IMG/VR virus record: IMGVR_UViG_3300036851_000360
Span: 8,181-72,180 of that record
Direction: 5' to 3' (one strand)
Length of the DNA stretch: 64,000 nucleotides
Origin: a virus
How positions within the stretch are numbered: the stretch's first letter is position 1; each line of letters opens with the position of its first letter. Both the position numbers and the translations under genes were made by a program. Positions 7,528-64,000 of this stretch are shown piece after piece. The notes under the pieces were generated by a model that ran no database searches, was not told where the DNA came from, and saw nothing but the letters and a program-made list of their open reading frames with translations.

Positions 7528-8817
7528 GTGGTCAACAGGTACTCGCCGCGGACGCCGGCCTGGGTGGACGGGCCGCAAGGGTTGGTGTTCGCGGCCGACG
7601 CGAACCGCTGGGAGCAGGGCATCGAGGCGCTCGACAACGCCCTCGACGCCGCCGAGGGTCGGCTGGACGCGCTGCAGGCCGCGCTCGGAGGCATCACCGC
7701 CACCGGTGTCCCGGTAGTCACTACCGCCACTCGCGGCACGCCCACCAAGGGCCGGATCGTCTTCGACGACGACCTGGATCAGTACATCGGCGGGACCGGG
7801 ACTGCATGGATCGAACTCAGCGTCGGCGAGGAGGTCCCCGGCCCCGGTTCCGGGACCGCACCGACCGGGCTGACCGCGGTCACCCAGCCGGACAACTCGA
7901 TCGTCGTGAGCTGGAACCCGGTGGTGGGTGCGACCCACTACAAGCTGTACGAGATCCGCTCCCCGGGCGGCGTCTCGGGCGCGGACAACATCACCACGAC
8001 CTCGACCACGCGCACCCCTAGCTCGATGGGCAACTACGAGTACTGGGTGACCGCCTTTGTCGGCGGCGTGGAGTCGGCGCAGTCCAACCACGGGCTCTGC
8101 GTGCTGCCCTACAGCACCGGCGGCGGCGGTGGAGGTGGTTCCGGCAGCACGCCGGCGCAGCTGCTCGCGCTCGGATCGACCGGCGGCAAGTGGAACCTAG
8201 GTGTCGGTTACCCGTCCGGGCACGTCGACATCGCACCGTCCACGTTGGAGGGCGGCTGGACGGAAGCCCCGTACTTCTACGTCAATGAGGCCGGGACCAA
8301 GGTCCACTTCCAGGTCCCGATGAACGGCGGGCGCACGAGCTCCAATACGAAATATCCCCGGTGCGAGCTGCGCGAGTACATCGGTAGCTCCAAGGCGGCG
8401 TGGTCCGGGTCGTCCGGAACGCATGTGATGTCCGGGCGGACCACCGTCCTGCACATGGAGTCCGGCAAGCCGGAGATGGTCGTCGCGCAGATGCACGACG
8501 GGTCGGATGACACCCTGCAGATCCGGGTCGAGGGCACGACGTGGCGCGCGTCGATCAACGGCACCGAGCACTCCACCACGCTGGGCACGTTCTCGACGGG
8601 CACCGAGGTGGCGTGGGAGATCCGGGTGGTCAACGGCACACTCACGATCAAGATCAACGGCACCACGAAGATCACAACCAACCCAGGATACGGCTCAGGG
8701 CAGTACTTCAAGGTGGGCTGCTACGCACAGCAGAACAACACCTCCGATGGCGGCGGCAACCCCGACAACGGGTACGCGTCCTGCGAACTGCGGGACCTCG
8801 TAGTTACGCACAGCTGA
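7528..8817 (+). CDS. Tail fibre with FN3-like domain and PL7 (alginate lyase-like) domain
   Basis: N-terminal coiled coil; 'APTGLTA...VSWNPV.GATHY'; PL7 motifs RCELRE, QMH, YFKVGCYAQ. Confidence 0.8.
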   Translation: MVNRYSPRTPAWVDGPQGLVFAADANRWEQGIEALDNALDAAEGRLDALQAALGGITATGVPVVTTATRGTPTKGRIVFDDDLDQYIGGTGTAWIELSVGEEVPGPGSGTAPTGLTAVTQPDNSIVVSWNPVVGATHYKLYEIRSPGGVSGADNITTTSTTRTPSSMGNYEYWVTAFVGGVESAQSNHGLCVLPYSTGGGGGGGSGSTPAQLLALGSTGGKWNLGVGYPSGHVDIAPSTLEGGWTEAPYFYVNEAGTKVHFQVPMNGGRTSSNTKYPRCELREYIGSSKAAWSGSSGTHVMSGRTTVLHMESGKPEMVVAQMHDGSDDTLQIRVEGTTWRASINGTEHSTTLGTFSTGTEVAWEIRVVNGTLTIKINGTTKITTNPGYGSGQYFKVGCYAQQNNTSDGGGNPDNGYASCELRDLVVTHS

Positions 8818-46918: not shown

Positions 46919-47308
46919 ATGTCCGACTGCTGCGGTGGGTGCGGTTCGTCGATGGTCCCCCGATCGTCAGGGGAATCCCGCGTCGACACACACGAGGGCC
47001 GCGGCCTGTGCCCTCCCTGCTACCGCCAAGCCCACTACACGGGCCGGTTGGACGAGTACCCGCGGCGGAGCTGGTCCCGGGAAGACGTGATGTCCGAGTG
47101 GGATCTGCTCCGGTCGGAGGGCTACACGCGTCGCGTCGCCGCTGACCGGTTGGGCATGAGGTGGGAGACGTTCGACCGCGCCTACTGGCGGGCCAGGGCA
47201 GCGGGTGATCCGCGGGCGGTGCCGGAGCAGGTGGCCAGCGACGCCGGCATCTGGACCATCCCCCCGACCCTGCGGCCACACGATCACACCATCGGGAGGG
47301 TGAAGTGA
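46919..47308 (+). CDS. Zn-finger plus HTH-like protein
   Basis: 'C.GC...H.GRGLC..CY'; 'AADRLGM'. Confidence 0.6.
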   Translation: MSDCCGGCGSSMVPRSSGESRVDTHEGRGLCPPCYRQAHYTGRLDEYPRRSWSREDVMSEWDLLRSEGYTRRVAADRLGMRWETFDRAYWRARAAGDPRAVPEQVASDAGIWTIPPTLRPHDHTIGRVK

Positions 47309-50108: not shown

Positions 50109-50699
50109 ATGACGCCGAGGAAGTCCGGCATCCCCACTGAGTATTCCGGGACCACGTTCCGGTCCCGTCTCGAGGCCCGGTGGGCCCGATTTTTCGACGG
50201 CATCGGCTGGAACTGGGAGTACGAACCGTTCGACGCGGACGGCTACATTCCCGATTTCCTCATCCTCGGCCGCTCCTCTCTCCTCATCGAGATCAAGCCC
50301 TACGGCGACCTGAGGATGCTTGTCGAGGAGGCTGATCGGGTCCGGCCCCTCGTTGGGCTCGGCTGGTCCGGGCACTTCGCGGTGTTCGGTGTCAACCCAC
50401 TCCTCGACCTGAACGGCTCGATGGGGCGTCCTGGACCAGGGGTCTATGTGACCGGCGGATCCGACTGGGGATCACCCGCAAGCGAGTCCGCGCTCGGTTG
50501 GACCGACTGTGGCTATGTCACGAACTACGGCAGCCACGGGCAGGAATGCGGTGCCATGTCCGTGTTCCACCAGACGGACAGCTACCAGGCGATCCCATGC
50601 GGCCACGCAGATGGGGACCACCACCTCGGCGAACCTCAACTCAGCTACATCAACACCATCTGGACCGCCGGACGCGACGCGACGAAGTGGTCGGCGTGA
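50109..50699 (+). CDS. PD-(D/E)XK nuclease-like protein
   Basis: 'FRSRLEARWA.FFD...W.W.YEP....GYIPDF......EIKP'. Confidence 0.8.
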   Translation: MTPRKSGIPTEYSGTTFRSRLEARWARFFDGIGWNWEYEPFDADGYIPDFLILGRSSLLIEIKPYGDLRMLVEEADRVRPLVGLGWSGHFAVFGVNPLLDLNGSMGRPGPGVYVTGGSDWGSPASESALGWTDCGYVTNYGSHGQECGAMSVFHQTDSYQAIPCGHADGDHHLGEPQLSYINTIWTAGRDATKWSA

Positions 50700-53236
50700 C
50701 GAGCGCAGACACCACCTACGACGGGGCCCTCGCCTGGTGGGACGCGGGCTGCAGCGTCGTCCGCGTCGCCCTCGACGGCACCAAGCGCCCCGACGGCGTC
50801 TGGAAGCAGTACCAGCGCGAACGCGCCGACCGCGACACCATCCACCGATGGTTCACCGCCGGCCACTCCGGCGTCGGCATCGTCTGCGGCGCCGTGTCCG
50901 GCAACCTCGAAATGCTTGAGCTCGAGGGCCGCGCCATCACCGAGGGCGTCCTGCAGCAGATGGTCGCCGCGTGTGACCAGCTCGGCGTCGGCGACCTGTG
51001 GCGCACCCTCACCACCACCTGCGCAGAAGCCAGCCCCTCCGGCGGCCTCCACGTCTTCTACCGCGTCCCCGACGGCGTCGCCGGCAACACCAAGCTCGCG
51101 CAACGCCTCGCCCACGACGACGAGTACACCGCCGAGGAACACGAACTCGCAGCCAAGGGCAAGACCATCGTCCGCGGCCTCATCGAAACCCGCGGCGAAG
51201 GCGGCTTCGTCGTCGTCGCCCCCAGCCACAGCACCGTCCACCCCACCGGCAAGCCCTACACCTTCATCGCCGGCAACCCCGCCACGATCCCCACCATCAC
51301 CGGGGAACAGCGCGACCTCCTGCACATCGCCGCCCGAACCTGCGACCAGCTCCCGGCACCCGCAGCCATCCCCGAACCCGTCATCCTCGAGCAGCGCCGC
51401 ACCGACGGAGGCACCAGCCCCGGCGACGACTACAACACCCGCGGCTCCTGGGCCGAACTGCTCACCGAACACGGATGGACCCGAGTGTGGGGCGACCACA
51501 CCCGCACCTACTGGCGCCGCCCCGGCAAGAACTTCGGCATCTCCGCCGTCACCGGCGGCACCGAAGGTGACTACTTCTACTCCTGGACAACCTCCAGCGT
51601 GCTCCCCGCCGAAGAGGCCATGTCGAAGTGGCGGGTGTACGCCGTCCTCGAACACGCAGGCGACTTCCACGCCGCAGCCAAGACACTCAAGAGCCGCGGC
51701 TACGGGCAGGCCCCACCGCCGCCCACCCGGCCCGTACTCACCACCGTCCCCATGGGCAGCAGCACCCACACCAACGGCAGCAGCGCCCTCGCCCCGCAGG
51801 TTGCAGAACAGGCCTCAAATAATATTCCGGCCGACGCCACCCTCGAACGTTCCGACGACGGCAACGCCCTCGCCCTCGTCGACCAGTACGGCACCCGCAT
51901 CCGGTACTGCCCCGAACGCGGCCGCTGGCTGCACTGGACCGGGAACCGGTGGGAATGGTGCCCCTCCGGCGGCGGTGTCGTCCGTGAGTACGCCAAGCAC
52001 ATCGCCCGCAGCCTCCCCGACGACGACAACGCGGCGATGAAGCACAAGCAGCGCAGCCTCGGCGCCATAGGCACCACGGCCATGCTCATCCAGGCCGCCA
52101 CCGACCAACGTGTCGTCGTCGCACTCGACGAGCTCGATGCCCGCCCCTACGAGCTCAACACCCCCGTCGGGATCGTCGACCTTCGCACCGGCGACACCAG
52201 CCCTGCCGACCCCACCCACCTGCACACCCGCATCACTAAAGCCGCACCCGACGCGGACGCAGACCCCAGCAGGTGGCTCACCTTCCTCGCAGACACCTTC
52301 GAAGGCCACCAAGAGCTGCCCGCCTACATGCAGCGCCTCGTCGGCTACTCCGTCACCGGTGTCGTCCGCGACCACGTGCTGCCGTTCCTGTTCGGCGCCG
52401 GCGCCAACGGCAAGGGCGTGTTCCTCGAGACCATGCGTGCCGTCCTCGGCGACTACGCCACGACCGCGCCGTCCGGGTTCCTGATGGCGAAAAACTACGC
52501 CGGCCACGAAACCGAGATCGCCCGTCTCGCCGGAGCGCGCATGGTCGTCTGCTCCGAAATCAACGAAGGCGACCGGTTCGACGAAGCCAAGGTCAAGCAG
52601 CTCACCGGCGGAGACGCGCTGACCGCACGGTTCATGCGGCAAGACCACTTCACGTTCACCCCGACCCACAAGCTGTGGCTGATGGGCAACCACCAGCCCT
52701 CCGTCACCTCCGGCGGCCACTCGTTCTGGCGGCGGCTGCGGATCGTGCCATTCGTCAACACTGTGCCCGAGGAGAAGCGGGTCGACGACCTGCAGGGAAT
52801 CCTCGCCACCCAGCACGGCGGCGCCATCCTGCACTGGATCGTCACCGGCGCTGCGGCCTACTTCACCGACGGTCTCCAGGAACCCGAGTCGGTGCGCGCC
52901 GCAACCGAGGAATACGCCAACGAGCAGGACACGGTGGCTCGGTTCGTCGCGGACCGATGCCACCTCGGGCCCCGCGAACATCTGCGGATGAAGGTCGGGA
53001 CCTTGCGGGCGGCCTACGAGGCATGGTGCTCCGACGAGGGCGACCCAGCGGTGAAACCACGCACGTTCGGCCTGACCCTGCGCACCCGGTTCGGAGTGGA
53101 GGCGACCCGGACGAATCGGGACCGCTTCTACACCGGCATCGCCCTGCTCGCGGAGCGTGACGAAGAGGAGGGTGACCGGCCCGACGATGCGTCACCCGCA
53201 CCTGAGAGGCGGGACCTGGCGTGGGGCCTCGGGTGA
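50696..53236 (+). CDS. Bifunctional prim-pol fused to P4/D5-family primase-helicase
   Basis: 'GIVCG.VSG', 'SPSGGLH', 'ETRGEGG.VV.APS'; 'G.GANGK.VF', 'K.LTGGD...ARFM', 'FWRR'. Confidence 0.92.
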   Translation: MTSADTTYDGALAWWDAGCSVVRVALDGTKRPDGVWKQYQRERADRDTIHRWFTAGHSGVGIVCGAVSGNLEMLELEGRAITEGVLQQMVAACDQLGVGDLWRTLTTTCAEASPSGGLHVFYRVPDGVAGNTKLAQRLAHDDEYTAEEHELAAKGKTIVRGLIETRGEGGFVVVAPSHSTVHPTGKPYTFIAGNPATIPTITGEQRDLLHIAARTCDQLPAPAAIPEPVILEQRRTDGGTSPGDDYNTRGSWAELLTEHGWTRVWGDHTRTYWRRPGKNFGISAVTGGTEGDYFYSWTTSSVLPAEEAMSKWRVYAVLEHAGDFHAAAKTLKSRGYGQAPPPPTRPVLTTVPMGSSTHTNGSSALAPQVAEQASNNIPADATLERSDDGNALALVDQYGTRIRYCPERGRWLHWTGNRWEWCPSGGGVVREYAKHIARSLPDDDNAAMKHKQRSLGAIGTTAMLIQAATDQRVVVALDELDARPYELNTPVGIVDLRTGDTSPADPTHLHTRITKAAPDADADPSRWLTFLADTFEGHQELPAYMQRLVGYSVTGVVRDHVLPFLFGAGANGKGVFLETMRAVLGDYATTAPSGFLMAKNYAGHETEIARLAGARMVVCSEINEGDRFDEAKVKQLTGGDALTARFMRQDHFTFTPTHKLWLMGNHQPSVTSGGHSFWRRLRIVPFVNTVPEEKRVDDLQGILATQHGGAILHWIVTGAAAYFTDGLQEPESVRAATEEYANEQDTVARFVADRCHLGPREHLRMKVGTLRAAYEAWCSDEGDPAVKPRTFGLTLRTRFGVEATRTNRDRFYTGIALLAERDEEEGDRPDDASPAPERRDLAWGLG

Positions 53237-53535
53237 CGGATCAGGCGCTTCAATGCGTCACCCCTCGGGGTGACAGAGGTGACGCATCGTTTCAAGATCA
53301 CGCCGTCGCTTCATGGAGTGATCTACGAATCATCCGTCACCAGCGTCATCGAACAGACTGCCCACAGGCCCGGGTGACGCAAGTGACGCAACTTCTGACT
53401 TATCAGAGCCGTAGGAATTTCGGTGACACAGGTGACGCATCGTTTCAAGATCACCCCTCGCGCATGCGCGCAAGGACCCTGATAAGGGAAGTTGCGTCAC
53501 CTGTGTCACCCCGTCACCGAGACGAGGTGACACAC
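53233..53535. repeat. Iteron-rich putative replication origin
   Basis: About a dozen GTGAC(G/A)CA or TGCGTCAC units; 33-bp repeat at 53269-53301 and 53422-53454 with one mismatch. Confidence 0.65.
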
Positions 53536-53536
53536 A

Positions 53537-53989
53537 GTGGTCGCTAACTCGCGACACCTCGTCACCACCACCCCACGACGAACCACCTGCCACCGATGCA
53601 AACGCATCGTCCTCGAAGGCACCGAGATGGGCGCCCCCTACTGCGTCGACGCCATCCCCCTCAACCTCCCCGGCGAACTCGATGCGCGCCTCAACGGCCG
53701 CAACACCTACCGAATCCTCGCCGGCCGGATCGCCCTCCGCGAACCCGACGACATCGCCGCCGACACCCGCAAAGGACGCCCCCCCGTCTGCGCCACACAC
53801 AGCTGCGCGCCCATCAACCCGGCGCACATCGACCCCAACCACGTCGCCACCTTCGCCACCTTGATCGCCGAGACACCCAAACAGACACCAGACGAGACAA
53901 ACGAGCAACACACCATGTTCGTCCTCAGCGGCGAGCTCCGCGGAACACGCCTCATCGCAGTCACCGACACCGACCGCCCACCCTTTTAA
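53537..53989 (+). CDS. Hypothetical Zn-binding protein
   Basis: CxxC...HxC motif; GAGG RBS. Confidence 0.55.
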
Positions 53990-53999
53990 GGAGAACCAG

Positions 54000-54236
54000 A
54001 TGCCCCGGCTCACGCCACGCCAGCACCGCATCCTCACCTACATCCGAGACCACACCCGCGAAGTCGGCTACCCGCCGACCGTCCGCGAGATCGGCGAGCA
54101 CACGGGGCTGGCCTCCACCGCCTCCGTGCACCGGCATCTGCTCCGGCTTGAGGAGAAGGGGCTTCTGCGCCGAAGAGCAGCCGGACGTTCCCGTGCCGTC
54201 GTCCTCACCAGGCCCACCGCGCCTGAGGCGGCGTGA
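54000..54236 (+). CDS. Stand-alone LexA DNA-binding domain
   Basis: 'LTPRQ.RIL.YI......[10 protein letters not shown]...GL.S.ASV..HL..LE.KG'; no peptidase domain. Confidence 0.85.
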
Positions 54237-56615
54237 CCGAACCTCAGCCGCTCGGCCGTCTCCTCCCCGGAGTGCTCGCCGACCTTGCCCGACGTCACGG
54301 CCACCACCCACCCACCACCCTCACAGACAGGACACCCATGACCGAGAAGATCCGCATCATCCCGGGGTGGACGCTCCAGGCCCGCTACGACGACGAGCGC
54401 CTGCTGCATGTCGAGCCGAGCCACAACCACGAGGTCTCCATCAAGATCGGCGATCAGGAGGCTGTGTTCGTTGACGGGCTCGACCTCCTCCGCGTCGTGT
54501 CGAAGGTCGTGCTTGAAGGGCTGTATGGGCCGTCGCCGACCGAGACCGATCGGGGTGCCGCGTGAACGCCGCCAACCCCATCGACGTCGACTCGCTACTC
54601 GCTTCGCTCGACCCAGCGCTGGCCGATTCGGGGGAGAACCAGTGGGGCAGCGCGAACCTCGAGAGCTGCGGCGAGTGCCCGTCCTGCGCGCCCGACCCGC
54701 TCTACGAGGCCGCGAACCTGCTGTTCCGGCACCGTCACAACCTCGCCCCCGACGTGCTTCGCACCCTCGCCAGCGTCTGGCAGTGCGGGTCGGCTTCCCG
54801 GTACGGCGAACCCCACGAAGAGTTCTGGGCCGACCAGGACGACTTCTACGCCGGCCACGACGTCGACGAGTGCGAGGCCGAGAACCAGGCAGGTGCCGCG
54901 TGATCCGCTGCGCGCGCTGCAAGCGCTTCACGAGCAACAACGTCGCCCTCCGCGGATTCGACGCGATCAAATCCGCCCACGGTGACTGCAAACGCTGCGG
55001 GCCCAAAGTCCCCGTCGATTGGGAGCACTGGGAGGACTGGGGTTGGTCCGACGATGAGGAAGAGGCGTTCGCCGACCGGCTCATCGCAGCGATCGAGGCA
55101 GGTGCCGCGTGAACGCCCTCGACCGCGCCCAAACCTACGCCGCGATCTTCCTCCAGGCCGGTGACCGCTGGCGCAACTACGTGCCCGTCGACGCAACCGT
55201 CACCGGCGACACCGTCCACCTCCAAGGCATCCGCATGGAACGCGGCAACAACGGGTGGCGGCTCGAAACCAACGACGAGGCGTGGATCGTCCGCGCGAAG
55301 GAGACGGCAGCGTGACCGCCACAACAGCCACCTACGTTGAGTACGAGCTCCCGGGCGTGTTCGTCGCCGAGCAGGACCGCCGACCCGTCTCCAGCCGGGA
55401 TCCACGAAAGGCAGCCGAGACTGCGCCGCGACAGGCGTTCGCGTTCACCTTCTACGACGTCGTAGTCGCCACCGCCTACGTCGACGACGAGGAGGTCACC
55501 ACAACCAGCCGGAGCCGGAGCCGCAGCGGCCGCTATTTCATCGACGGCGAGCAGTTCGACGCCGCTGGAGTCGAGGCGCTCCCGGGGGACCACCACATCT
55601 TGCTCGCGAACATGCGCGGCAACGGGTGGGAGCACGTCGTCCGCTGCCGGACCGGAAACTTCCAGCCGATGCAGCCGGGTGACGAGATTGTCTCGACTGG
55701 TGGTGCCGCGTGACCGCCCGGATCTGCTGGTGGTGCGGTCAACTCGACGACCTGCGGCCACACCCCCGCACCGGCGCCCCGCAGCGCTGTCCCTGCAACG
55801 CGAACACCGTCACCCCGTTCGACGTCGAGGTGCGGCACCGCAAAGCGGTCCGCGCCGCCAGAGCCCGCGACTGGGCCGGTAACGCCGGCGACCGCACACG
55901 GCCGCGGGTCATCGGCGCGAACTTCGGCAGGAGGCGAGCCGCATGACCCTCAGCACCTTCAACGCGATCCTCGGCCCGCTCACACTGGTCCTCGCGATCA
56001 CCTTCACCGTCCAAGCGGTGCGCTGGATCCGCGCCCTCGTCAAGGCTGACACCGAGATCAGCGACGAACTCCGCCTGATCATCGAGGACCTCCGCAGCCG
56101 CGACCCGCAACTGGAAGACGTGCTCGAACTGTCGCTGCACAAGCTCGACGACTGGGAGCGGCGCATGCAGCGGCTTCGACACCTCACCCTGCTCACGCTG
56201 GTGCGGAGGAAGCCGTGAACGACCCGCTAGAGAGCCGTCTCCGCGAGGTCCTGGTCGCTGCTCAGGCCCGGTTTCGGAAGCAGTGCGGCATGGGTGTCAT
56301 CGTCACCCCGATCATCCCCAACCCCCTCATCGACCAGGTCGCCCAAGGGTTGGCACCCGTGCTGCGGGACCTGGTCCGGGAAGCCGTGAGGACCGAACTG
56401 CAGGGGGAGGGGTTGTGATGGATGTGGGCGATGCGCTGATCGAAGCCGACGACGCGGCGCGATACGGAGACAGCGTTGGTCCGTCGATTGCAGCAACCCT
56501 CGCAGCGGAGGTGCGTCGGCTGCAGGCGATGGAGTGTCGGGCTCGAGAGGTGGCCGTGCAGGGCAGCGACGTTGGCGCGTCGGTCGCCCGCTACATCCTC
56601 GGGGAGTCGTCGTGA
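54233..56615 (+). other. Run of small genes (54233-54565, 54562-54903, 54900-55112, 55109-55315, 55312-55713, 55710-55946, 55943-56218, 56215-56418, 56418-56615)
   Basis: GTGA/ATGA overlap-coupled ORFs. Confidence 0.6.
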
Positions 56616-57301
56616 CCGACCCGACCGCCGCCCAGCCGTGGACCGTCACCCTCGCCTGGACCCCTGACCAGAACTCCGGGCGCGTCTCCACCCTGGACCG
56701 GCGGGTGCCGCTGTTCGCGATCGCCCGAGCCGTGCGCGCGGGGGATGCGCTCGACGAGATCGCCGACGACTACGACCTCACCGTCCAGCAGGTCTGGGTG
56801 ATTGTGCAGCTGGTCAGCGAGGTGGACCTGACCGACGAGCCTCGCTGCTCCTGCCCACCCATGGACGTCACCCCGCAGGAGATCGAGGCCGCGCGGGGCG
56901 GGCTGGGTCTGGTGATGTTCGTCCCCGGCCGCCCGGCCCCACAAGGCTCCAAGCGGCACGTCGGGAACGGGATCCTCCTCGAGTCGTCCAGGGCCGTCGC
57001 CCCGTGGCGCACCACAGTGGCCTGGCACGCCGCTGACGCATTCCGCGGCGCACCGCTCGACGGGCCGATCGTGGCCCGGTTCGAGTTCGTTATGCCCCGC
57101 CCCACCTCGCTGCCCAAGCGCAAGCCCACACCGCCGCACACGAAACGCCCCGACGTCGACAAGCTCGCCCGCGCCGTTATGGACGCCCTCAGCGGTGTGG
57201 TGTGGCGGGACGACTCCCAGGTGACCGACATGCACCCGACGAAGCGGTACGCCGAGCTCGACGAGCAGCCCGGCGTCAACATCCGAGTGAGGACCGCATG
57301 A
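56612..57301 (+). CDS. rusA: RusA Holliday junction resolvase with N-terminal DUF433-like domain
   Basis: 'PG.PAPQGSK', 'RPDVDKLARAVMDAL.G..W.DDSQV'; N-terminal 'RVP...I...AG...EIA.DY.L'. Confidence 0.85.
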   Translation: MTDPTAAQPWTVTLAWTPDQNSGRVSTLDRRVPLFAIARAVRAGDALDEIADDYDLTVQQVWVIVQLVSEVDLTDEPRCSCPPMDVTPQEIEAARGGLGLVMFVPGRPAPQGSKRHVGNGILLESSRAVAPWRTTVAWHAADAFRGAPLDGPIVARFEFVMPRPTSLPKRKPTPPHTKRPDVDKLARAVMDALSGVVWRDDSQVTDMHPTKRYAELDEQPGVNIRVRTA

Positions 57302-57643
57302 CCCAGCCGCACTGGGACTGGCTCCACGGGCCCGCCGACCAACCCGACCCGCGTGTCGGGGAACGGTCGGCGTCCGCCGCCCACCAGGACCGTCCGAGTC
57401 AGCCAGGCACGGCGTGGGACTACTGGCTGCACCAACCGGTCCGTGAACTGAGCGAGGAGGCCTCGTGACGAACTTGAACGCGCTCATCGACTCCCTCGGC
57501 CCAATCGCCCGCCGCCCAGACGAGGCCCGCCTCGCTGTCCTGCACGTGCTCCGCCGCGTTGATGGGGGGCAGCTCACCGCCAGGCAGGCACGCGAGGCCC
57601 TAGAAGCGCTCGGGCTGATCACACCTCAGACAGGAGAAACCAC

Positions 57644-57874
57644 ATGAGCCGCCCGCCAGGCAGCGAACAACGCCAACGCACCGCCCTCGTGGGTGTCCGT
57701 CTCCTCCCGGAGGAGTACCAGCGCCTCGTAGACCACGCCACCACCCGTGGCATGACCGCGCCGGCGGTCCTCCGGTCCCGCATCGAAGACCTGATCCGCC
57801 CTCAGCCCGCGTGGAGCGGTCAGGAGTCGTATCCATCCGCAGACGCCGCGGAAAGCCCGGCAGCGGCGAACTGA
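57644..57874 (+). CDS. MobC/MobA-like ribbon-helix-helix protein
   Basis: 'SEQRQRT..VGVRL.PEEY..L...A..RG.T....LR'. Confidence 0.55.
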   Translation: MSRPPGSEQRQRTALVGVRLLPEEYQRLVDHATTRGMTAPAVLRSRIEDLIRPQPAWSGQESYPSADAAESPAAAN

Positions 57875-57953
57875 GGGGCAGCAAGAGGCATAAACAAGCA
57901 ACCCAGCCCACCCCAGAAACCCCGAACCTGCCGAACCTGCCTAGGAGCCCACC

Positions 57954-58886
57954 GTGGACCGTGCCCTCAAAGCCGTCGCACACCCCTACCAACGCCGGAA
58001 GCCCACCAACGAGAAACTCCGCGCCCTCGGCTGGACCATCGCCCTCGTTCTCGGAGTCGCCACCGCCTTCGTCGGATCCGTGGCCCTTGTCGTCATTGGT
58101 GGCGCACTAGCCGTCAGCGTCGTCGGCGGACCCGCCGGAGTCATCCTCACCCTCGTCACAGCCTGCCTGCTCATCGCCGTCGGAATCTGGCTCGCCAACG
58201 ACAAGCAGCGGCCATGACCGAACCCGGGTACGAACGCATCGCCGATGCGATCTTCTACGCGTGTGAAGTCGCCGCCCTGGACATCATCGTCACCCGCGAC
58301 CGGCGCCCGGTCGACTCCCCGGAGCTGGTGCTCGCCCGGGTGCTGGACAAAGCCGGCCTCATCGACTGGGCCGCGTTCGAGGAGAAGCCATGAGCGCCGA
58401 CCTTCTCCGCCAGGCAGCTGAGCGCATCGAACAACTCGCCGGCGACTGCCCCACCAACACCGCCGACTACCGGCACCTCTGCTCATTCCTCTCTCGAGGC
58501 AACGGAGGCGTGATTGGGCAACCAACCCTGCAGTGGTGGAACACCATGGGGCCGGACATCGGGGCCCCGCTCGCCGCCGTCCTCCGTATGTACGCCGATG
58601 CCTGCGAACGACACGTCGCAGGCCGCCCAGTCGAAGACCTCATCGGCGACACGCCGGCGTTCGCCCTCGCCCGCGCAATCCTCGGAGAACAACCATGAGC
58701 GTCCCTAGCCACGAGAACCCGTCCGGCTACGAAATTCGCGCCGAGCGAGCAGCCGAGCACCAAGCCATGCTTCAGCGCCTCACGAAGCTTCAGCGCCACC
58801 TGGACGGCGTCAGTGGCCCAGCCCGCGTCCACGCCGAGATCGCGATCGAAACTCTCCGCGCCCGACTCCTGGGGCTGGTGCGATGA
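57954..58886 (+). other. Small genes (57954-58217 two-TM membrane protein, 58214-58393, 58390-58698, 58695-58886)
   Basis: Overlap-coupled ORFs with RBSs. Confidence 0.55.
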
Positions 58887-59085
58887 CCGACTCCCGCACC
58901 GAGGACTGGACCCCTGAAGGTGTCGACCTCCTCCTGAAACTCTGCGACGAACGCGAGAAGCACGTCCGCGACAGCGTCCCCCACCTGGCAGCCGACACAG
59001 CCACCCTGTCCGTCCGGCAGATCCGGCAAGTCCTCAGGAGATGGCGCCGATGACGCATGATCACCCAACGAGAGGAACCCTCCAC

Positions 59086-59469
59086 GTGAAGCGACTCATC
59101 ACCGGCCTGGCGGTTGGGCTGCTGGCCCTCACCGGCTGCAGTTCGGACGCCCAGAAGGTGTCGGAGAACCTGTCCACAGCAGCGGACAACTTCGAAGTCG
59201 AGCGGCTGATCGTGGGCATCAACGGCATCACCGACCAGGTCCTGTTCTCCGTTCAGGGCCGGTGCTCCATCACCCGTGACGGCGACCTGGTGGTCATCTG
59301 CAAGGAGGGCCCGAACGAGTACAAGAAGCACATGCTCGGCCTGTCCCACAACGTCACGTTCGTGTCCACCCAGCTCGCGCCAGCCGACGCCTCGGTCTAC
59401 CACACGCGGATCATCCTCAAGCCGACCAACATCGTGCCGGACTTCGACATGTCGGTGGGGAACCAGTGA
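59086..59469 (+). CDS. Phage lipoprotein
   Basis: Lipobox LTGC; 'A..VS.NLS.AADNFEV.R.IV.INGITD'. Confidence 0.75.
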   Translation: MKRLITGLAVGLLALTGCSSDAQKVSENLSTAADNFEVERLIVGINGITDQVLFSVQGRCSITRDGDLVVICKEGPNEYKKHMLGLSHNVTFVSTQLAPADASVYHTRIILKPTNIVPDFDMSVGNQ

Positions 59470-59836
59470 GACCTGGTCGACCGGAGCTGCTCGACCGGCT
59501 CGCCGAACTCGTGAAGGAGCAGCAGTGACCTGGTGGCACTGGTGGCACACCTGGGAGCCCGTCGCCGTGCAACACGGTCGGGACAGACTTTCCCGTACCG
59601 AGGTCACCGTTGTGCTCGAACGATGCTGGTGCGGCAAGACACGTACCCGAGGACCGCTTATCGGCCACTGGACAGCCGAAGAGGTGGGCATCGCCGAAGC
59701 CCGGAAGTAGATGAGGGCCCTGCCGCGATCAGCAACGCGGCAGGGCCCACCTGCGGCAACGACTGTGACGGGTCGCAAGGGAGCGCGCAGGGCCTCGTCC
59801 AAGGCGAGCGGAATCTACGCCACGGAGGTCATCGCT

Positions 59837-60562
59837 GTGCACGACACGCTCGAACGCCCCACCAACGCCTGCATGTGCTGCCTCCCACCCAGCCCCCAAC
59901 GCGGATGGCGCATCGCCGACACCGGATACCGCACCTGCGCCTCATGCCTCGACCGCATCCGCGACCTCCTCAAAGACATCGTCCGCCGCTACCTCCTACT
60001 CAACCCCCGACCAGGCGCATCCGGCGAACACGGCCGCGGAGCACCCGGATTCGGCTCCCGCAGCCCCGGCAGCGAACACATCATCGCGATGCGGGATCGC
60101 CGCTCCAGCCCAGTCGCGCGAACCTGGCTCGGCGGCGACGGCCGACTCCACCAAGAGTCCGAACGCCCCCCGATGTCCGTCCACGGCGTACTCGACACCA
60201 TCGCCTGGGACATCGCCGAAGCCCGCGAACAAGCCGGCCCCAACGAACGTTCAGACGTCCCCCAACTGGCCCGCTACATCGACGTCAACCTCGACTGGGC
60301 CACACGCCAAGCGGGCATCGCGGAAGTCGACAAGCAACTCCGCGCACTCGCCGCCCAACTGAAGCCCGTCACCGGCGACCCTGGCCGCCGGCACATCGGC
60401 ACCTGCCCAGTCGTCATCGACGAAGGCGAGCACACACGCGAGTGCGGAGCCCGCCTCTACGCCCCACTGAGGGGCGACAGCATCGAATGCGGCTCGTGTG
60501 GGGAGGTGTGGCCGCGGGAGAAGTGGCTGCGCCTCGGGGACCTCCTCCAGGACGTCAGCTGA
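59837..60562 (+). CDS. Zn-finger hypothetical protein (possible late regulator)
   Basis: Several CxxC motifs; 'G.CP...CGA.L.......I.C..CG..W'. Confidence 0.6.
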   Translation: MHDTLERPTNACMCCLPPSPQRGWRIADTGYRTCASCLDRIRDLLKDIVRRYLLLNPRPGASGEHGRGAPGFGSRSPGSEHIIAMRDRRSSPVARTWLGGDGRLHQESERPPMSVHGVLDTIAWDIAEAREQAGPNERSDVPQLARYIDVNLDWATRQAGIAEVDKQLRALAAQLKPVTGDPGRRHIGTCPVVIDEGEHTRECGARLYAPLRGDSIECGSCGEVWPREKWLRLGDLLQDVS

Positions 60563-60570
60563 GCGCCGCC

Positions 60571-60777
60571 GTGGCCGAGAGACGCCGACACCTCATCAAC
60601 GCCCGCGACGCAGTAACCCACCTGCGCCGCGCCTACGGCCTACGCCTCTCACCCGCCACGATCCGACAGTGGGCCGCCCGAGACCACATCGGCTCCCACA
60701 GCTTCCGGCGAGAACGCTACGACCTCCGCGAGATCGTCGAACACGCCCGCGAACGTGGCCTGATTGCCGACCCGTGA
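60571..60777 (+). CDS. Small HTH DNA-binding protein
   Basis: 'SPATIRQWAAR.HI.......YDL.EI'. Confidence 0.6.
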   Translation: MAERRRHLINARDAVTHLRRAYGLRLSPATIRQWAARDHIGSHSFRRERYDLREIVEHARERGLIADP

Positions 60778-60849
60778 TCAGGTGTGTCACACTTTGTGCA
60801 GACGGCAGAGGTGTCTCTGTAACGCCTCAACCACGTTGAGCGAACTGAA

Positions 60850-60892
60850 CGTAGACCCCAGCCCAGGATCCCCTCCCGCGGCTGGGGTCTGC
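60850..60892. terminator. Stem-loop between convergent genes
   Basis: GTAGACCCCAGCC...GGCTGGGGTCTGC. Confidence 0.65.
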
Positions 60893-60895
60893 TCG

Positions 60896-61096
60896 TTACT
60901 CCGCCCGGGCGAGCATCTTGTACACGGCGTCTCGGGTGATCCCGGCGGCTTCCGCAATCTGCTCGACAGTGAACTGGCCGGAGTCTTTGGCCGCCCTGAC
61001 GGCGGCGACCCGGTTCCGCTCGGCTGCCTTTACCGTTGCGGTCGCCCGCGTGACGTTCCCGAGTAGTTTTGCCCGCAACCTTGTGACGCTGGTCAT
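60896..61096 (-). CDS. Small HTH protein, candidate regulator of the GTAGA-N6-TCTAC operators
   Basis: 'TVEQIAEAAGITRDAVYKML'; GGGAGG RBS; sits behind an operator pair. Confidence 0.75.
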   Translation of the reverse strand: MTSVTRLRAKLLGNVTRATATVKAAERNRVAAVRAAKDSGQFTVEQIAEAAGITRDAVYKMLARAE

Positions 61097-61114
61097 CGCC
61101 CCTCCCAGGTAGAC

Positions 61115-61153
61115 GTAGAGGCGAGTCTACGCATGTGGTAGAGCGGCGTCTAC
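61115..61153 (-). promoter_or_regulatory. Tandem operator/promoter A
   Basis: GTAGA-N6-TCTAC-N7-GTAGA-N6-TCTAC; minus strand TAGACG-17-TAGACT. Confidence 0.75.
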
Positions 61154-61170
61154 AGCTTCCGGAGGTGCGG

Positions 61171-61479
61171 ATGGGGAAGCTCGAGAAAGTCCCCGGCGTC
61201 CAGAACTGGATCGACCGCCTCCCCGCCAGCATGAAGGCAGCCTGGCACCGCTCGATCATCTACCGCGCCGCCGTACACCTCCACTTCGAACGCGGCATGC
61301 CCGTCGGCAAGGCCATCGCCTCCGCGATCAACTGGTGTAAGCACATCGCCGCCACCGGCGACGTCAAACAATGGCCCGGACCCCAGCAGGTCAACCCCAA
61401 GAGCGTCAGCGAGTGCGTCGCAGCACTGGCCCTATGGGAGTCCATGAAGGCCCACGCCAGGGCATCCCGGAAGGGCTGA
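61171..61479 (+). CDS. Hypothetical protein
   Basis: GGAGG RBS; 'AIA.AI...K...A...AAL..WE..KA'. Confidence 0.6.
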   Translation: MGKLEKVPGVQNWIDRLPASMKAAWHRSIIYRAAVHLHFERGMPVGKAIASAINWCKHIAATGDVKQWPGPQQVNPKSVSECVAALALWESMKAHARASRKG

Positions 61480-61480
61480 C

Positions 61481-61786
61481 ATGGCCTGGCAGGGCAGCAC
61501 CCGCCGCGTCCGGCTACCGAAGGAGTGGCACGCCGCCCGAGCTAGGGTGCTGCGCGACCACGGCCGCATCTGCCACCTCTGCGGCGGCCCAGGTGCCACC
61601 GAGGTCGACCACGTCGTCCCAGGTGACGACCACAGCCCAGCGAACCTGCGCCCCGCGCACAAGAGCTGTCACGCCCGGAAGTCATCCACGGAGGGCGGCA
61701 CGGTCGCCGGCACCAACCGCCGAGCCCGAGCAGCGGGTCGCAAACGCCCCCCCGAACCTCACCCCGGCGTCGTTTCTGCCCGCTAA
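61481..61786 (+). CDS. HNH endonuclease (terminase-associated type)
   Basis: 'VL.....C..CG...ATEVDH......H...NL...H..CH..KS'. Confidence 0.9.
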   Translation: MAWQGSTRRVRLPKEWHAARARVLRDHGRICHLCGGPGATEVDHVVPGDDHSPANLRPAHKSCHARKSSTEGGTVAGTNRRARAAGRKRPPEPHPGVVSAR

Positions 61787-61800
61787 CCCACGAAATGGAA

Positions 61801-61832
61801 CGAGCCCCAACCCTTGGGTGGGTTGGGGCTCG
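61801..61832. terminator. Stem-loop between convergent genes
   Basis: CGAGCCCCAACCC-N6-GGGTTGGGGCTCG. Confidence 0.7.
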
Positions 61833-61850
61833 CGGTTGACAGTCAGACCC

Positions 61851-62021
61851 TCAGTGCTTGCGCTCGGCCCTTCGAGCGGCCAGACGAGCACGCGCCCGCT
61901 CGGTGATGGCGGCAACGGCCTCCGGGGTAAGCAGCTCGGCAGGGATGACATCCGCACCGTTGGTCCGCTGCACGCTGGCCTGGCGCTCGTTCCGAGCCCG
62001 CTCGATCCAGAAGTCAATCAT
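61851..62021 (-). CDS. Small hypothetical protein
   Basis: GAGG RBS; behind operator pair B. Confidence 0.5.
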   Translation of the reverse strand: MIDFWIERARNERQASVQRTNGADVIPAELLTPEAVAAITERARARLAARRAERKH

Positions 62022-62055
62022 CGCTGGTGCCTCTCGTGGAGTTGCGCCCTTTGTT

Positions 62056-62094
62056 GTAGATCTGAGTCTACACAACATGTAGAGCATTGTCTAC
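62056..62094 (-). promoter_or_regulatory. Tandem operator/promoter B
   Basis: Same architecture as A; minus strand TAGACA-17-TAGACT. Confidence 0.75.
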
Positions 62095-62116
62095 ACCTCC
62101 CCGGGAGGAACCCACC

Positions 62117-62521
62117 ATGATGTCCGTGAAGCTCGTCCGCCGCTGGGGCCCGCACTCCGCCGGACGCACCGTCCAGGTCGACGACGAACAGGGCGTGTGG
62201 CTCATCCGCCACAACTACGCCCAGACCGCCGGTGAAGTCCTCGCCCCCGACCAGGTCGCAGCGGCTGAGGGCGGTCATGGTGCCGACCCGCTCGCCGGCG
62301 GCGACGCAACCCGACGCCGACCCCAGGTGACCCAGGGCTCCCGCAACAACTCCTCCAACGTCGCTCAGGCCGGCCCCGGTGTCCCGCCTGTGTTCCGGGC
62401 CGGGTTCACCGCCGACCACCGCGGGCTCGAGGGTGAGGCTGGACGCCACCACGAGGCGCCCGCACAGGCCGCTGAGGGCAGCAAGAAGCCCGTCAGGCGC
62501 CGGAGCAAGTCCGACAGCTGA
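62117..62521 (+). CDS. Hypothetical protein
   Basis: GGAGG RBS; 'VKL...WG....G.TV.V.......LI...YA'. Confidence 0.6.
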   Translation: MMSVKLVRRWGPHSAGRTVQVDDEQGVWLIRHNYAQTAGEVLAPDQVAAAEGGHGADPLAGGDATRRRPQVTQGSRNNSSNVAQAGPGVPPVFRAGFTADHRGLEGEAGRHHEAPAQAAEGSKKPVRRRSKSDS

Positions 62522-62540
62522 CGGGCTGTCTGGCGGTGGG

Positions 62541-62751
62541 TCAGCGGGCGAGGTGAACCCTCGCGTCGACGGCCCGCTCGACGTCGCCGAGCAGCTGCTG
62601 CAGGTGCCGACCGGTGCCCTTCCCGAGCAGATGCCGGGCGAGGTCTTCAACACCGGCGGCGTAGGCGCGCTCGGCCGGGCTATCGGAGCTCAAATGCCGC
62701 CCCGTACGCCTCGTCGGCCAGGGTTGCGAGCTGCGCTTCGGTCATCTTCAT
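62541..62751 (-). pseudogene. Frameshifted small gene
   Basis: MKMTEAQLATLADEAYG then +1 frame RHLSSDSPAERAYAAGVEDLARHLLG...; one extra base in a G4 run. Confidence 0.5.
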
Positions 62752-62765
62752 CGTGGTGTCCTTCC

Positions 62766-62841
62766 ACATCACGTCTTCCCGGGACCAGCTCCGCCGCGGG
62801 TACTCGTCCGAGGAGGTCCCCGGCCCCGGTTCCGGGACCGC
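62766..62841. repeat. Chimeric insert: inverted copy of 47050-47093 joined to direct copy of 7827-7859
   Basis: 44-bp and 33-bp exact matches sharing one base at 62809. Confidence 0.85.
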
Positions 62842-62917
62842 TCGGTGGTGGTGCTGGTGAAGTGCCCTGCCGAGGTAGCGACCCTCGGTACGCCAGCCAG
62901 GGCGTCCGTACGGGTGG

Positions 62918-63433
62918 TCAGGCCTCGTAGCAGTCGGAGTCGGTGGCGCAGGTGGCCTGAGCGATCGCGGCCGGCACGTATAGCGCTTCCAGCTGGTCGC
63001 TCGCAATGCCGGTGTAGCCCATTGCCAGCAGGTCCCCCCACATCGCATCCGAGACGGTGCCGTACTCCACCATCACGATGTCGCTGGGCAGGTACAGGGC
63101 CTCGCGCCCATCGGTCGGGTCGCCGGCGAAGCCCATCGCGATCAGCCGGTCCCACGTCACGTCCGGCACCTCGCCGTACTCGATGACGATCGAACCGGGC
63201 TGGGTTGAGCCGGTCCACTCGGCGGGAGTTTCGGCCATCGCCGGCGAACCGGTCCCGACCAGGGTGGCGAGGACCGCAACCACCAGGGCTGCAATGAGGG
63301 GGAAGCGCCTGCGGCGGGAGGTGGCTGGTGCCGCGTCCAGGGCCCGGAGGGAGCGCTCAGCTTCCCGCTCGGCGTTGCGGAAGTGGGCGATGGCGATCGC
63401 GAGCTGCTGGGCTGCGGCCTGGGTGCTGGTCAT
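62918..63433 (-). CDS. Membrane or secreted protein with internal duplication
   Basis: RRRR plus hydrophobic segment ending AMA; two copies of 'EYG.V.D..W..L.AMG..G...D..EALY.P'. Confidence 0.7.
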   Translation of the reverse strand: MTSTQAAAQQLAIAIAHFRNAEREAERSLRALDAAPATSRRRRFPLIAALVVAVLATLVGTGSPAMAETPAEWTGSTQPGSIVIEYGEVPDVTWDRLIAMGFAGDPTDGREALYLPSDIVMVEYGTVSDAMWGDLLAMGYTGIASDQLEALYVPAAIAQATCATDSDCYEA

Positions 63434-63461
63434 TGGGTGCTCCTCGGTGGGGGCTGCTGGT

Positions 63462-63500
63462 GTAGACCGAACTCTACGCACAACGTAGAGCTGTGTCTAC
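63462..63500 (-). promoter_or_regulatory. Tandem operator/promoter C
   Basis: Same architecture as A; minus strand TAGACA-17-TAGAGT. Confidence 0.75.
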
Positions 63501-63589
63501 ACCTGGGCGCAAAGAGGCGCCTGACCAGGGCACGCCAGGGCAAGAGAAGGCCAGCTCGCCATGCACAGGCTGTCCGCGCCAGCCCTCTT

Positions 63590-63880
63590 ACCCACAGCCA
63601 GCCACCTGGACCACACCACACACACCAGGCCGCGCCACCACGTGCAACCACACAGCCACACACCACGCACACACCAGACGCACGTACACGCAGACCAACG
63701 AGCAGCACGAGCAGCACAGCACTACACACACCACAACGCAGCTGCACCAGCTCAAGCACACGCACACACCAGCACAGCTGAAGCACCACGCACTAAGCAC
63801 ACATGTGCACCACCACCACGAAGCACACGACGAGTTCGAGCACGAGCACGTGCACCAGTGACAACGACGAGCAGCACAAG
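63590..63880. repeat. C/A-rich low-complexity tract
   Basis: Dense CAC/ACAC/GCAC repeats with very few T on the plus strand. Confidence 0.7.
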
Positions 63881-64000
63881 TCAGCTCACGTTGACGCGCA
63901 TCGCCGGCCCTTTCGCTCGAGCCCTTGGACCACCGACAACCGTGGGTCACGGAACGTGACGAAGGGGTGGGGGGTGACCCCCTCGCCTCGCGACCTGGAC

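What the first reader, a model, noticed from the sequence alone, without database searches (positions are those of the whole stretch)
62766..62841. 76-bp insert stitched from two exact fragments of distant phage genes
Seen: 62766-62809 is the exact reverse complement of 47050-47093 (Zn-finger/HTH gene), and 62809-62841 equals 7827-7859 (PL7 tail-fibre gene), joined with a 1-bp overlap. On the minus strand the insert interrupts what looks like a normal leader (ACCAGCACCACCACCGAG | GAAGGACACCACGATG), similar to the leader at 63434-63461. The pieces are of CRISPR-spacer size but there are no repeats. Inference: a templated-insertion scar from end-joining repair of a break, capture of prespacer-sized fragments, or a decoy/antisense RNA (a leftward transcript would be antisense to the tail-fibre mRNA).
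Basis: partly seen in the sequence, partly recalled or inferred. Interest (0 to 1): 0.7.

Follow-up and report, generated by a model that had tools for sequence, protein, structure and literature searches.

The report
Two-piece repair scar in phage leader
A 76-base patch made of exact copies of two of the phage's own genes was pasted into the short spacer in front of a small gene, most likely when a DNA break was mended; it is a real but ordinary mutational scar, not a new genetic device.

Summary
62766-62809 is the exact reverse complement of 47050-47093, and 62809-62841 equals 7827-7859, sharing one base. These are the two longest exact repeats in the 72-kb genome. No other long-range repeat exceeds 20 bp exact or 28 bp inexact.

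The insert is not an assembler artefact. An independent k=31 assembly of run X1, the likely source sample, has contigs across all three junctions. The 44-mer sits at about twice the flank depth.

A related phage contig, L005 (88-96% identical in blocks), has the same intergenic region without the 76 bp. A paralogous leader 0.7 kb away is also contiguous across the insertion point.

The joins show 0-1 bp of microhomology and no target-site duplication, repeats or unusual fold. The gene just downstream is frameshifted in this phage.

Best reading: a recent one-off capture of two short pieces of phage DNA at a repaired double-strand break. This matches the 30-83 bp endogenous insertions seen at break scars in Streptomyces (PMC5869714). 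Serial template switching is the main rival. Nothing supports a CRISPR or antisense role.

The same scan has noted similar single-fragment scars on other DNA.

One detail is unexplained: TCGG flanks both donors and the target.

The parts
62766..62809 (.). Left piece of the insert: an exact inverted copy of 47050-47093. On the minus strand it reads in the sense of the donor gene.
   Evidence: 100% over 44 bp. In run X1 the 44-mer is a separate contig at depth 46.6, about twice the flanks.
62809..62841 (.). Right piece of the insert: an exact direct copy of 7827-7859. On the minus strand it is antisense to the donor gene. C at 62809 is shared with the left piece.
   Evidence: 100% over 33 bp. 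A 59-base contig of X1 (62780-62838, depth 14.6) crosses the middle joint.
47050..47093 (+). Donor 1: codons 45-59 of the 130-aa gene 46916-47308, which matches an HNH-like PHROG. The donor is intact.
   Evidence: phrog_20467 covers residues 4-88, so the segment is native to the gene.
7827..7859 (+). Donor 2: the linker codons (about 100-111) of the 429-aa tail-region gene 7528-8817, which has a C-terminal PL7 alginate-lyase domain. The donor is intact.
   Evidence: (PF08787, residues 221-428).
62749..62765 (-). Left flank of the insert: the ribosome-binding-site-like GGAAGGA and the ATG (62751-62749) of the small downstream gene.
   Evidence: Read from the sequence. Conserved in L005.
62842..62921 (-). 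Right flank: an intergenic block conserved in L005 although the genes on both sides diverge. It holds a 13-nt imperfect inverted repeat (62863-62895).
   Evidence: (87.5% over 88 columns), alignment, (I4).
62541..62751 (-). Downstream gene, split in this phage into a 23-aa ORF (62680-62751) and a 50-aa ORF (62541-62693). The L005 ortholog is one 70-aa ORF.
   Evidence: L005 protein residues 1-19 align in one frame (62751-62695) and residues 17-60 in another (62702-62574).
62918..63433 (-). Upstream gene of the same leftward cassette: 171 aa with a hydrophobic segment and two repeats, and no known family. It is 41% identical to a 107-aa protein at the same place in L005.
63431..63461 (-). Paralogous leader of the upstream gene. 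It is contiguous across the position where the insert splits the downstream leader.
63459..63503 (-). A 20-nt inverted repeat enclosing the only sigma-70-like promoter match of the region (TAGACA-17-TAGAGT, 63499..63471). It is the likely start of the leftward transcript that would carry the insert.
   Evidence: These are consensus matches only; function is inferred.

Best explanation
The 76 bp are a recent one-off mutational scar. A double-strand break arose in the leader between the two genes of a leftward accessory cassette, 1.2 kb from the right end of a temperate actinobacteriophage genome. It was closed by end joining, and two short duplex pieces of phage DNA were ligated into the gap: one of 44 bp and one of 32-33 bp. 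They probably came from a degraded sibling genome in the same cell. The phage has no Ku or ATP-dependent ligase, so the joining enzymes would be the host's, with Ku/LigD-type non-homologous end joining the likeliest. The patch has no function of its own. It sits upstream of the ribosome-binding site of a small gene that is also frameshifted in this phage, so it was tolerated. Shown: the insert is real in the reads, exact, compound, absent from a relative, and joined without meaningful microhomology or target duplication. Inferred: the break itself, the duplex nature of the pieces, the host NHEJ enzymes, and neutrality. The confidence given (0.6) is for this specific capture-by-end-joining mechanism; that the insert is a non-functional repair or copying scar of some kind I hold at about 0.85.
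For: (1) The insertion is real. Contigs of run X1 cross the left joint (60500-62795, depth 22.5), the middle joint (62780-62838, depth 14.6) and the right joint (62812-64000, depth 30.9). The 44-mer has depth 46.6, as expected for two copies per genome. No contig skipping the 76 bp was listed. (2) Empty sites exist. L005 runs from the conserved start-codon flank straight into the conserved intergenic block. The segment between the flanking BLAST blocks is 76 bases shorter in L005, 213 against 289. The paralogous leader is also contiguous across the joint. (3) The event is recent. The insert shows 0 of 76 differences from the donors, while the flanks differ from L005 by 4-12%. (4) The joins are blunt-like: 0, 1 and at most 1 bp of possible overlap at the three joints, about what chance gives, and no target-site duplication. 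(5) It is a single event: no other such insert exists in the 72-kb genome. (6) There is precedent in Actinobacteria. In Streptomyces ambofaciens, I-SceI break scars carried inserts of 42, 83 and 30 bp copied from the organism's own genome, the last from a distant gene (PMC5869714, passages read). In Sinorhizobium, Ku-dependent repair captured linear DNA into a chromosomal break, twice as two cassettes in tandem (PMC6379672, passages). Host NHEJ is reported to act on mycobacteriophage DNA (PMC12848934, abstract and section 21). (7) No Ku (PF02735) or ATP ligase (PF01068) is found in the phage, so host enzymes would be needed.
Against: The host is unknown, so the presence of Ku/LigD cannot be checked, and NHEJ is sporadic among bacteria (PMC7719229). 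Only one relative with an empty site was found, and it differs from the window by a 2-nt indel and two substitutions right at the site; a few bases of filler or loss therefore cannot be excluded. Joins with 0-1 bp of microhomology also occur in template switching, so the junctions do not strictly separate capture from copying. X1 is probably the sample the record was assembled from. It therefore excludes an assembler artefact but is not an independent sample. k=31 contigs also cannot show one molecule spanning all three joints, or exclude the inverted arrangement of 47094-62765 between the two 44-bp copies. The middle-joint depth (14.6) is lower than the flanks (22.5 and 30.9), so a minority of genomes without the insert is not excluded. 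The shared TCGG at both donor flanks and the target flank is not predicted by random breakage.
Confidence: 0.6

Rival explanations
1. Serial template switching during replication or break-induced repair synthesis (FoSTeS/MMBIR-type, or synthesis-dependent end joining). A nascent strand left the leader, copied 44 nt from one strand at 47050-47093, then 32-33 nt at 7827-7859, and returned to the exact point of departure. In this model nothing was cut out of another genome.
For: Both donors are intact, so the event is copy and paste. The pieces lie in opposite orientations, which is common in such events. The return is precise, with no loss of flank judged by the paralogous leader. A frameshift lies about 50-70 nt from the insert in the next gene; that error-prone repair synthesis can leave such frameshifts is from general knowledge, not tested here. 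The two pieces share the 8-mer CCGGGACC and can pair with each other (I2 and I3), which might favour strand exchange. Earlier notes of this scan filed similar single-fragment copies under this mechanism.
Against: Microhomology at the three joints is 0, 1 and at most 1 bp, whereas this mechanism usually shows 2-5 bp or more (recalled). The bases before each donor (TCGG) do not match the 3' end that would have had to prime there (CTTCC, then GTCC). Intact donors are equally expected under capture, because many genome copies share a cell. The frameshift could be an unrelated mutation in a dispensable gene.
Confidence: 0.25
2. A selected regulatory element. The leftward cassette transcript carries 33 nt that are perfectly antisense to the PL7 tail-gene mRNA; a rightward transcript would carry 44 nt antisense to the HNH-like gene. 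The element would silence a late gene, for example from the prophage.
For: Perfect complementarity of 33 and 44 nt. A promoter-like site lies upstream on the minus strand, so the insert is probably transcribed as part of the cassette. This is inferred.
Against: The closest relative lacks the element. There is no fold signal (z 0.72, -0.16, 0.58) and no Rfam family over threshold. The targets are internal coding positions, not translation start regions. One piece is sense on either strand, which selection for antisense would not explain. The adjacent gene is frameshifted, suggesting the cassette is decaying in this phage.
Confidence: 0.05
3. A by-product of CRISPR adaptation or a similar integrase: prespacer-like fragments of the phage inserted at an ectopic site.
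For: One piece (32-33 bp) has a common spacer length. The phage encodes a Cas4-like/RecB-family exonuclease (48569-49351; phrog_1674 E=3e-81 and phrog_1706 E=4e-8). Both donors are preceded by the same four bases, which could be read as a motif next to a protospacer.
Against: No repeat lies between or beside the pieces and no target sequence is duplicated, though staggered integration by Cas1-Cas2 duplicates its target (recalled). The other piece is 44 bp, so there is no ruler length. Self-derived spacers without repeats cannot make guide RNA. Exonucleases of this family are, from recall, commonly annotated in phage recombination modules.
Confidence: 0.03
4. A laboratory or assembly chimera that does not exist in the phage population.
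For: The record is a metagenome assembly. The only run that holds it fully (X1) is probably its own source. Contigs, not raw reads, were available.
Against: A de Bruijn assembler cannot create three joints that share 0-1 bp; it needs reads containing them. A second assembler (k=31) recovered all three joints at depths of 14.6-30.9, and the 44-mer at twice the flank depth. That rules out a single chimeric molecule.
Confidence: 0.03

Closest known systems
Insertion of short endogenous DNA at double-strand-break healing sites in Streptomyces ambofaciens (Hoff et al. 2018, PMC5869714; passages read)
   Same: An actinobacterial setting and the same size class: 30, 42 and 83 bp there, 33 and 44 bp here. 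In both, the inserts are exact copies of the organism's own sequence, one from a distant gene, placed at a repaired break with little or no homology.
   Different: Those events were induced with I-SceI in a chromosome and each scar carried one fragment. Here the event is natural, lies in a phage genome, is made of two fragments in opposite orientation, and the break is only inferred. The junction tables of that paper are in supplements that I could not open.
NHEJ-mediated capture of DNA fragments in bacterial breaks (Dupuy et al. 2019, PMC6379672; passages read)
   Same: Ku-dependent ligation of free duplex DNA into a break, including 2 clones of 285 with two cassettes in tandem. That shows multi-fragment capture is possible.
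   Different: The captured DNA there was a kilobase-scale electroporated cassette with designed ends in an alphaproteobacterium. The pieces here are 33-44 bp of the genome's own DNA.
Templated insertions by microhomology-mediated template switching (FoSTeS/MMBIR; polymerase-theta end joining in eukaryotes). Named from general knowledge and from the listing, where no paper was read in full.
   Same: Short exact copies of distant sequence, in either orientation, sometimes several in a row, at a single site.
   Different: Those joints typically carry 2 bp or more of microhomology, and the donor is often within a few kb. Here the joints have 0-1 bp and the donors lie 15.7 and 55 kb away. No polymerase-theta homolog is expected in bacteria.
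Single-fragment gene-copy scars noted earlier by this scan in other phages and genomes (e1-6113748, e1-6060247, e1-2316953 and others)
   Same: Exact 30-56-bp copies of a gene fragment in an intergenic spacer or another gene, each judged a one-off copying or repair scar.
   Different: Those are AI notes on other DNA and I did not check them. This case has two fragments and an empty site in a relative.

Membership tests
Filler-DNA or captured-fragment insertion at a repaired break | The inserted sequence is an exact or near-exact copy of sequence found elsewhere, and the source copy remains intact | tested here: met
   44/44 and 33/33 identical. Both donor genes have open frames.
Filler-DNA or captured-fragment insertion at a repaired break | An uninterrupted (empty) site exists in a relative or paralog | tested here: met
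   L005 lacks the 76 bp. The paralogous leader is contiguous across the joint. Only one relative was found.
Filler-DNA or captured-fragment insertion at a repaired break | No transposon hallmarks: no terminal inverted repeats of its own, no target-site duplication, no multiple copies | tested here: met
   The middle-joint 30-mer is absent from viral contigs (the window's own record may be left out of that scan).
Filler-DNA or captured-fragment insertion at a repaired break | A double-strand break occurred at the site | not testable with these tools
   Inferred only.
Bacterial Ku/LigD NHEJ product | Ku and LigD are available in the cell where the event happened | not testable with these tools
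   The host is unknown. The phage itself has neither Ku nor an ATP-dependent ligase.
Bacterial Ku/LigD NHEJ product | Joints with no or minimal microhomology | tested here: met
   0, 1 and at most 1 bp at the three joints.
MMBIR/FoSTeS template-switch insertion | Microhomology (usually 2 bp or more) between the priming end and each new template | tested here: not met
   The native 5' flanks of the donors (...CTCGG...GTCGG) do not match the preceding product ends (...CTTCC...CGTCC).
CRISPR array or ectopic Cas1-Cas2 integration | Spacers of uniform length separated by direct repeats, or a duplicated target sequence | tested here: not met
   The pieces abut directly, have lengths of 44 and 32-33 bp, and no repeat flanks them.
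Antisense or small regulatory RNA gene | Conservation in relatives, its own promoter and terminator, or a fold more stable than chance | tested here: not met
   Absent from L005. z-scores 0.72, -0.16 and 0.58. No terminator-like site (0 found). No Rfam hit over threshold.

The most novel reading that the evidence does not exclude
The scar records the cutting specificity of a sequence-directed nuclease. In the orientation in which they sit in the insert, both donor pieces begin immediately after TCGG in their native genes. The target was opened immediately before TCGG, and the far side of donor 2 ends one base from the reverse complement of that word. If this is not chance, one enzyme cut the phage DNA beside TCGG at several places. 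It could be a host anti-phage nuclease, or one of the phage's own HNH enzymes. The surviving genome would then have been resealed with two of the resulting fragments, making this a natural footprint of defence cleavage followed by end-joining escape.
Probability: 0.06. Interest if true: 0.65.

Novelty: new member of a known kind. Interest (0 to 1): 0.3.

Why it matters
It is a clean natural example, with donor sequences, an empty site and junctions all in hand, showing that short pieces of a phage's own DNA can be patched into its genome without homology. Such events are documented experimentally in Streptomyces and Sinorhizobium chromosomes, but I know of no described case in a phage genome. 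I did not run a literature search aimed at that point. It shows that illegitimate end joining contributes, at least occasionally, to change at the gene boundaries of actinobacteriophages, where mosaic joints form. It also creates 44-bp inverted and 33-bp direct repeats that could later seed an inversion or a deletion. It does not reveal a new system. The practical lesson for the scan is that exact, spacer-sized self-copies without repeats are repair scars until shown otherwise.

Tried and rejected
- **Relatives in phage and viral collections:** the annotated phage collection gave no match for 61800-64000, near or distant. Searches of viral contigs found nothing with the 171-aa protein, the left-flank 26-mer, the 144-aa protein or the middle-joint 30-mer. 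The tools warn that the window's own record may be left out of these scans.
- **Relatives in metagenome and genome contigs:** Metagenome contigs with the 171-aa protein gave none. Genome contigs with the 144-aa protein gave only two weak partial hits (41-50% over 40-47 residues) in unrelated MAGs, L006 and L007, which I did not use.
- **Leader motif:** it is not a genome-wide signal. The 21-nt degenerate motif matched only at the insert flank, and the 10-mer only at 63441-63450.
- **Expression:** no RNA holder was listed, so nothing can be said about transcription.
- **Run X2:** it holds only short, diverged pieces of a relative (9 of 30 bins). None covers 62606-63073, so it says nothing about the site.
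- **Fold and RNA families:** folding of the insert and of the whole intergenic region is no better than shuffles. Rfam gave two sub-threshold matches outside the insert.
- **Earlier notes:** there are none on this genome.
- **Microhomology-primed models using TCGG/CCGA:** I worked through annealing of either break end and fill-in or removal of 4-nt overhangs by hand. None reproduces the observed product without an extra TCGG copy, so the pattern stays unexplained.
- searches failed on wrong coordinates and were corrected. One search failed on a too-short search term and was replaced.

Full report
**Observation**

Window 62766-62809 is the exact reverse complement of 47050-47093. Window 62809-62841 is identical to 7827-7859, and the two copies share one C. 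In a full exact-repeat scan of the window (169 pairs at k=14, both strands) these are the two longest repeats. The 24-32-bp repeats that follow are local repeats inside single genes, and no other distant exact match exceeds 20 bp. A gapped self-BLAST of the whole record gave E=1e-16 and 3e-10 for the two matches and found no further insert of this type.

**Context**

The window is bases 8181-72180 of a 72,180-base virus record, classed as linear and estimated 93% complete. PHROG and Pfam scans of 54 of about 85 called ORFs show a temperate siphovirus of an actinobacterium. The main genes are:
- terminase small subunit from base 16 of the record;
- portal, capsid and tape measure genes;
- serine integrase (39288-40772) and its directionality factor;
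- WhiB;
- RecE-like and Cas4-like exonucleases;
- RusA;
- a primase-polymerase whose best hits are Arthrobacter phages at only 52% amino-acid identity;
- an HNH endonuclease at 61481-61786.

Donor 1 lies in a 130-aa HNH-like gene (46916-47308), in frame at codons 45-59. Donor 2 lies in the linker of a 429-aa tail-region protein with a PL7 alginate-lyase domain (7528-8817).

The insert lies in a leftward two-gene cassette at the far right of the genome:
- A promoter-like site inside a 20-nt inverted repeat (63459-63503).
- A 171-aa protein of no known family (62918-63433).
- A 167-nt spacer that contains the insert.
- A small downstream gene starting at 62751.

The insert sits just upstream of that gene's ribosome-binding-site-like GGAAGGA.

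**Is it real?**

One run, X1, holds all sampled words of the region and may be the source sample. Its Logan contigs come from an independent k=31 assembly, and four of them bear on the insert:
- A 15,732-base contig ends at 62795. It crosses the left joint at depth 22.5. By arithmetic its other end is at about 47064, inside donor 1, as expected when a 44-bp repeat breaks a k=31 graph.
- A 44-base contig equals the repeat, at depth 46.6, about twice the flank depth.
- A 59-base contig covers 62780-62838 and crosses the middle joint at depth 14.6.
- A 1214-base contig starts at 62812 and crosses the right joint at depth 30.9.

No contig skipping the 76 bp was listed. Joints that share 0-1 bp cannot be invented by a de Bruijn assembler, and these depths exclude a single chimeric molecule.

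Three limits remain. These are contigs, not reads, and they come from the probable source sample. k=31 cannot fix the orientation of the 15.7-kb segment between the two inverted 44-mers. The lower depth at the middle joint leaves room for a minority without the insert.

**Is it an insertion?**

A metagenome scan with the neighbouring 144-aa protein found one relative, L005, a 4792-base contig. L005 aligns with the window in blocks of 88-96% identity from 59715 to 64000. The segment between the blocks on either side of the insert is 213 bases in L005 and 289 in the window, a difference of 76. In the alignment L005 runs from the conserved start-codon flank directly into the conserved intergenic block, and the whole 76 bp is a gap.

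Right at the site L005 differs from the window by a 2-nt indel and two substitutions, so up to three bases of filler or loss cannot be excluded. Within the window itself, the leader of the upstream gene (63431-63461) aligns with the split leader across the insertion point (score 48; shuffles 29.8 +/- 4.0; 3 of 2000 reach it). That argues for a clean insertion without loss of flank.

The insert has 0 of 76 differences from its donors, while the flanks differ from L005 by 4-12%. The event is therefore younger than the split from L005.

**What the joints say**

The possible overlap is 0 bp at the left joint, 1 bp at the middle joint and at most 1 bp at the right joint (the last base of the insert equals the last base of the left flank). 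There is no target-site duplication, no repeat between or beside the pieces, and no other copy.

This blunt-like pattern, two pieces in opposite orientation and intact donors fit the ligation of free duplex fragments into a break. The phage has no Ku or ATP-dependent ligase, so host enzymes are implied. The host is unknown, so this step is inferred.

Direct precedents exist:
- Streptomyces ambofaciens break scars carried inserts of 30, 42 and 83 bp copied from its own genome (PMC5869714, passages).
- Ku-dependent repair in Sinorhizobium captured DNA into a break, including two cassettes in tandem in 2 of 285 clones (PMC6379672, passages).
- Host NHEJ is reported to act on mycobacteriophage DNA (PMC12848934, abstract and section 21).

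The junction details of the first two papers are in supplements that I could not open.

**Rivals**

Serial template switching explains the copy-and-paste nature equally well and might also explain the nearby frameshift. However, the priming ends do not match the donor flanks, and microhomology is at chance level. I give it 0.25.

A selected antisense or decoy RNA has nothing in its favour beyond the complementarity. It is absent from L005, has no fold signal and no Rfam family, and its targets are internal coding positions.

A CRISPR-type integration fails on repeats, target duplication and length uniformity. An artefact is largely excluded.

**Side observations bearing on neutrality**

The L005 ortholog of the downstream gene is one 70-aa ORF. 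In the window it is split into 23-aa and 50-aa ORFs by a frameshift near 62695-62702, and run X1 shows the same sequence (0 other letters in that contig). The gene whose leader was hit is therefore already broken, or was broken by the same event. This fits a tolerated scar rather than a device.

**Unexplained**

In insert orientation both donors are natively preceded by TCGG, and the right target flank begins with TCGG. Donor 2 is followed, one base on, by the reverse complement of that word. In 200,000 random draws from this genome, three of six flank 4-mers were identical in 0.14% of draws (0.46% allowing either strand). The test is post hoc and depends on the 1-bp boundary choice. No end-joining or priming model that I worked through reproduces the product from this word. 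This pattern is the basis of the most novel reading, a sequence-directed nuclease footprint, to which I give about 6%.

**Verdict**

This is a real, recent, two-fragment patch insertion with donors, joints and an empty site all documented. It is a new natural example of a known kind of repair scar. The scan has seen single-fragment versions on other DNA (unchecked notes). It is of modest interest as an example of illegitimate joining in phage evolution and is not a new system.

Noticed in passing
window 62541-62751 (minus strand); L005 3575-3787: The small gene just downstream of the insert is split by a frameshift near 62695-62702 into 23-aa and 50-aa ORFs. The relative has one 70-aa ORF. The family is unknown (best Pfam E=0.07).
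   Followed up: yes
window 63459-63503: A 20-nt inverted repeat (85% complementary, 5-nt gap) encloses the only sigma-70-like promoter match of the region (TAGACA-17-TAGAGT on the minus strand). It looks like an operator over the promoter of the leftward cassette.
   Followed up: partly
window 63500-63900: About 400 bp of gene-free, C+A-rich DNA, strongly strand-skewed, with short imperfect tandem units (periods 6-9 and 27). It is conserved at about 89% in L005 and lies next to the genome's right end. Its function is unknown; it could be part of the packaging or end region.
   Followed up: partly
window 64000 / record start; L005 4774-4792: L005 runs 19 bases past the window's end, and its last 8 bases resemble the first bases of the record (6 identical). 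The X1 contig runs 25 bases past the end. The record's two ends therefore nearly abut, with about 11 bases missing, and three assemblies stop within about 25 bases of each other. That would fit a physical (cos-type) end just upstream of the small terminase gene.
   Followed up: partly
window 62842-62921: This intergenic block is conserved between the window and L005, although the genes on both sides are diverged or replaced (the 171-aa and 107-aa proteins are 41% identical). Such a conserved boundary sequence could serve module exchange or hold a terminator-like hairpin (62863-62895).
   Followed up: partly
window 47050-47093 and 62766-62809: The insertion created 44-bp perfect inverted repeats 15.7 kb apart, plus 33-bp direct repeats 55 kb apart. 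Recombination between them would invert 47094-62765 or delete most of the genome. The k=31 contigs cannot tell the two orientations apart.
   Followed up: no
window 61398-62425 (run X2): One contig of run X2 (a relative, about 90% alike) joins 61398 directly to 62425. It skips 1026 bases that hold the HNH gene and the start of the 144-aa gene, which suggests the HNH gene is a mobile insertion in this lineage.
   Followed up: no
window 60500-64000 (run X1): Contig depth is 22.5 left of the insert (47064-62795) and 30.9 right of it (62812 to the end). The cause is unknown: it could be coverage bias near the genome end or a second strain sharing the right arm.
   Followed up: no
window 62399-62417 and 11319-11337: An exact 19-bp direct match links the 144-aa gene, 0.35 kb from the insert, to the 1421-aa tail gene. 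L005 has it with one mismatch, so it predates the split. It is at the edge of chance (E=0.03).
   Followed up: partly
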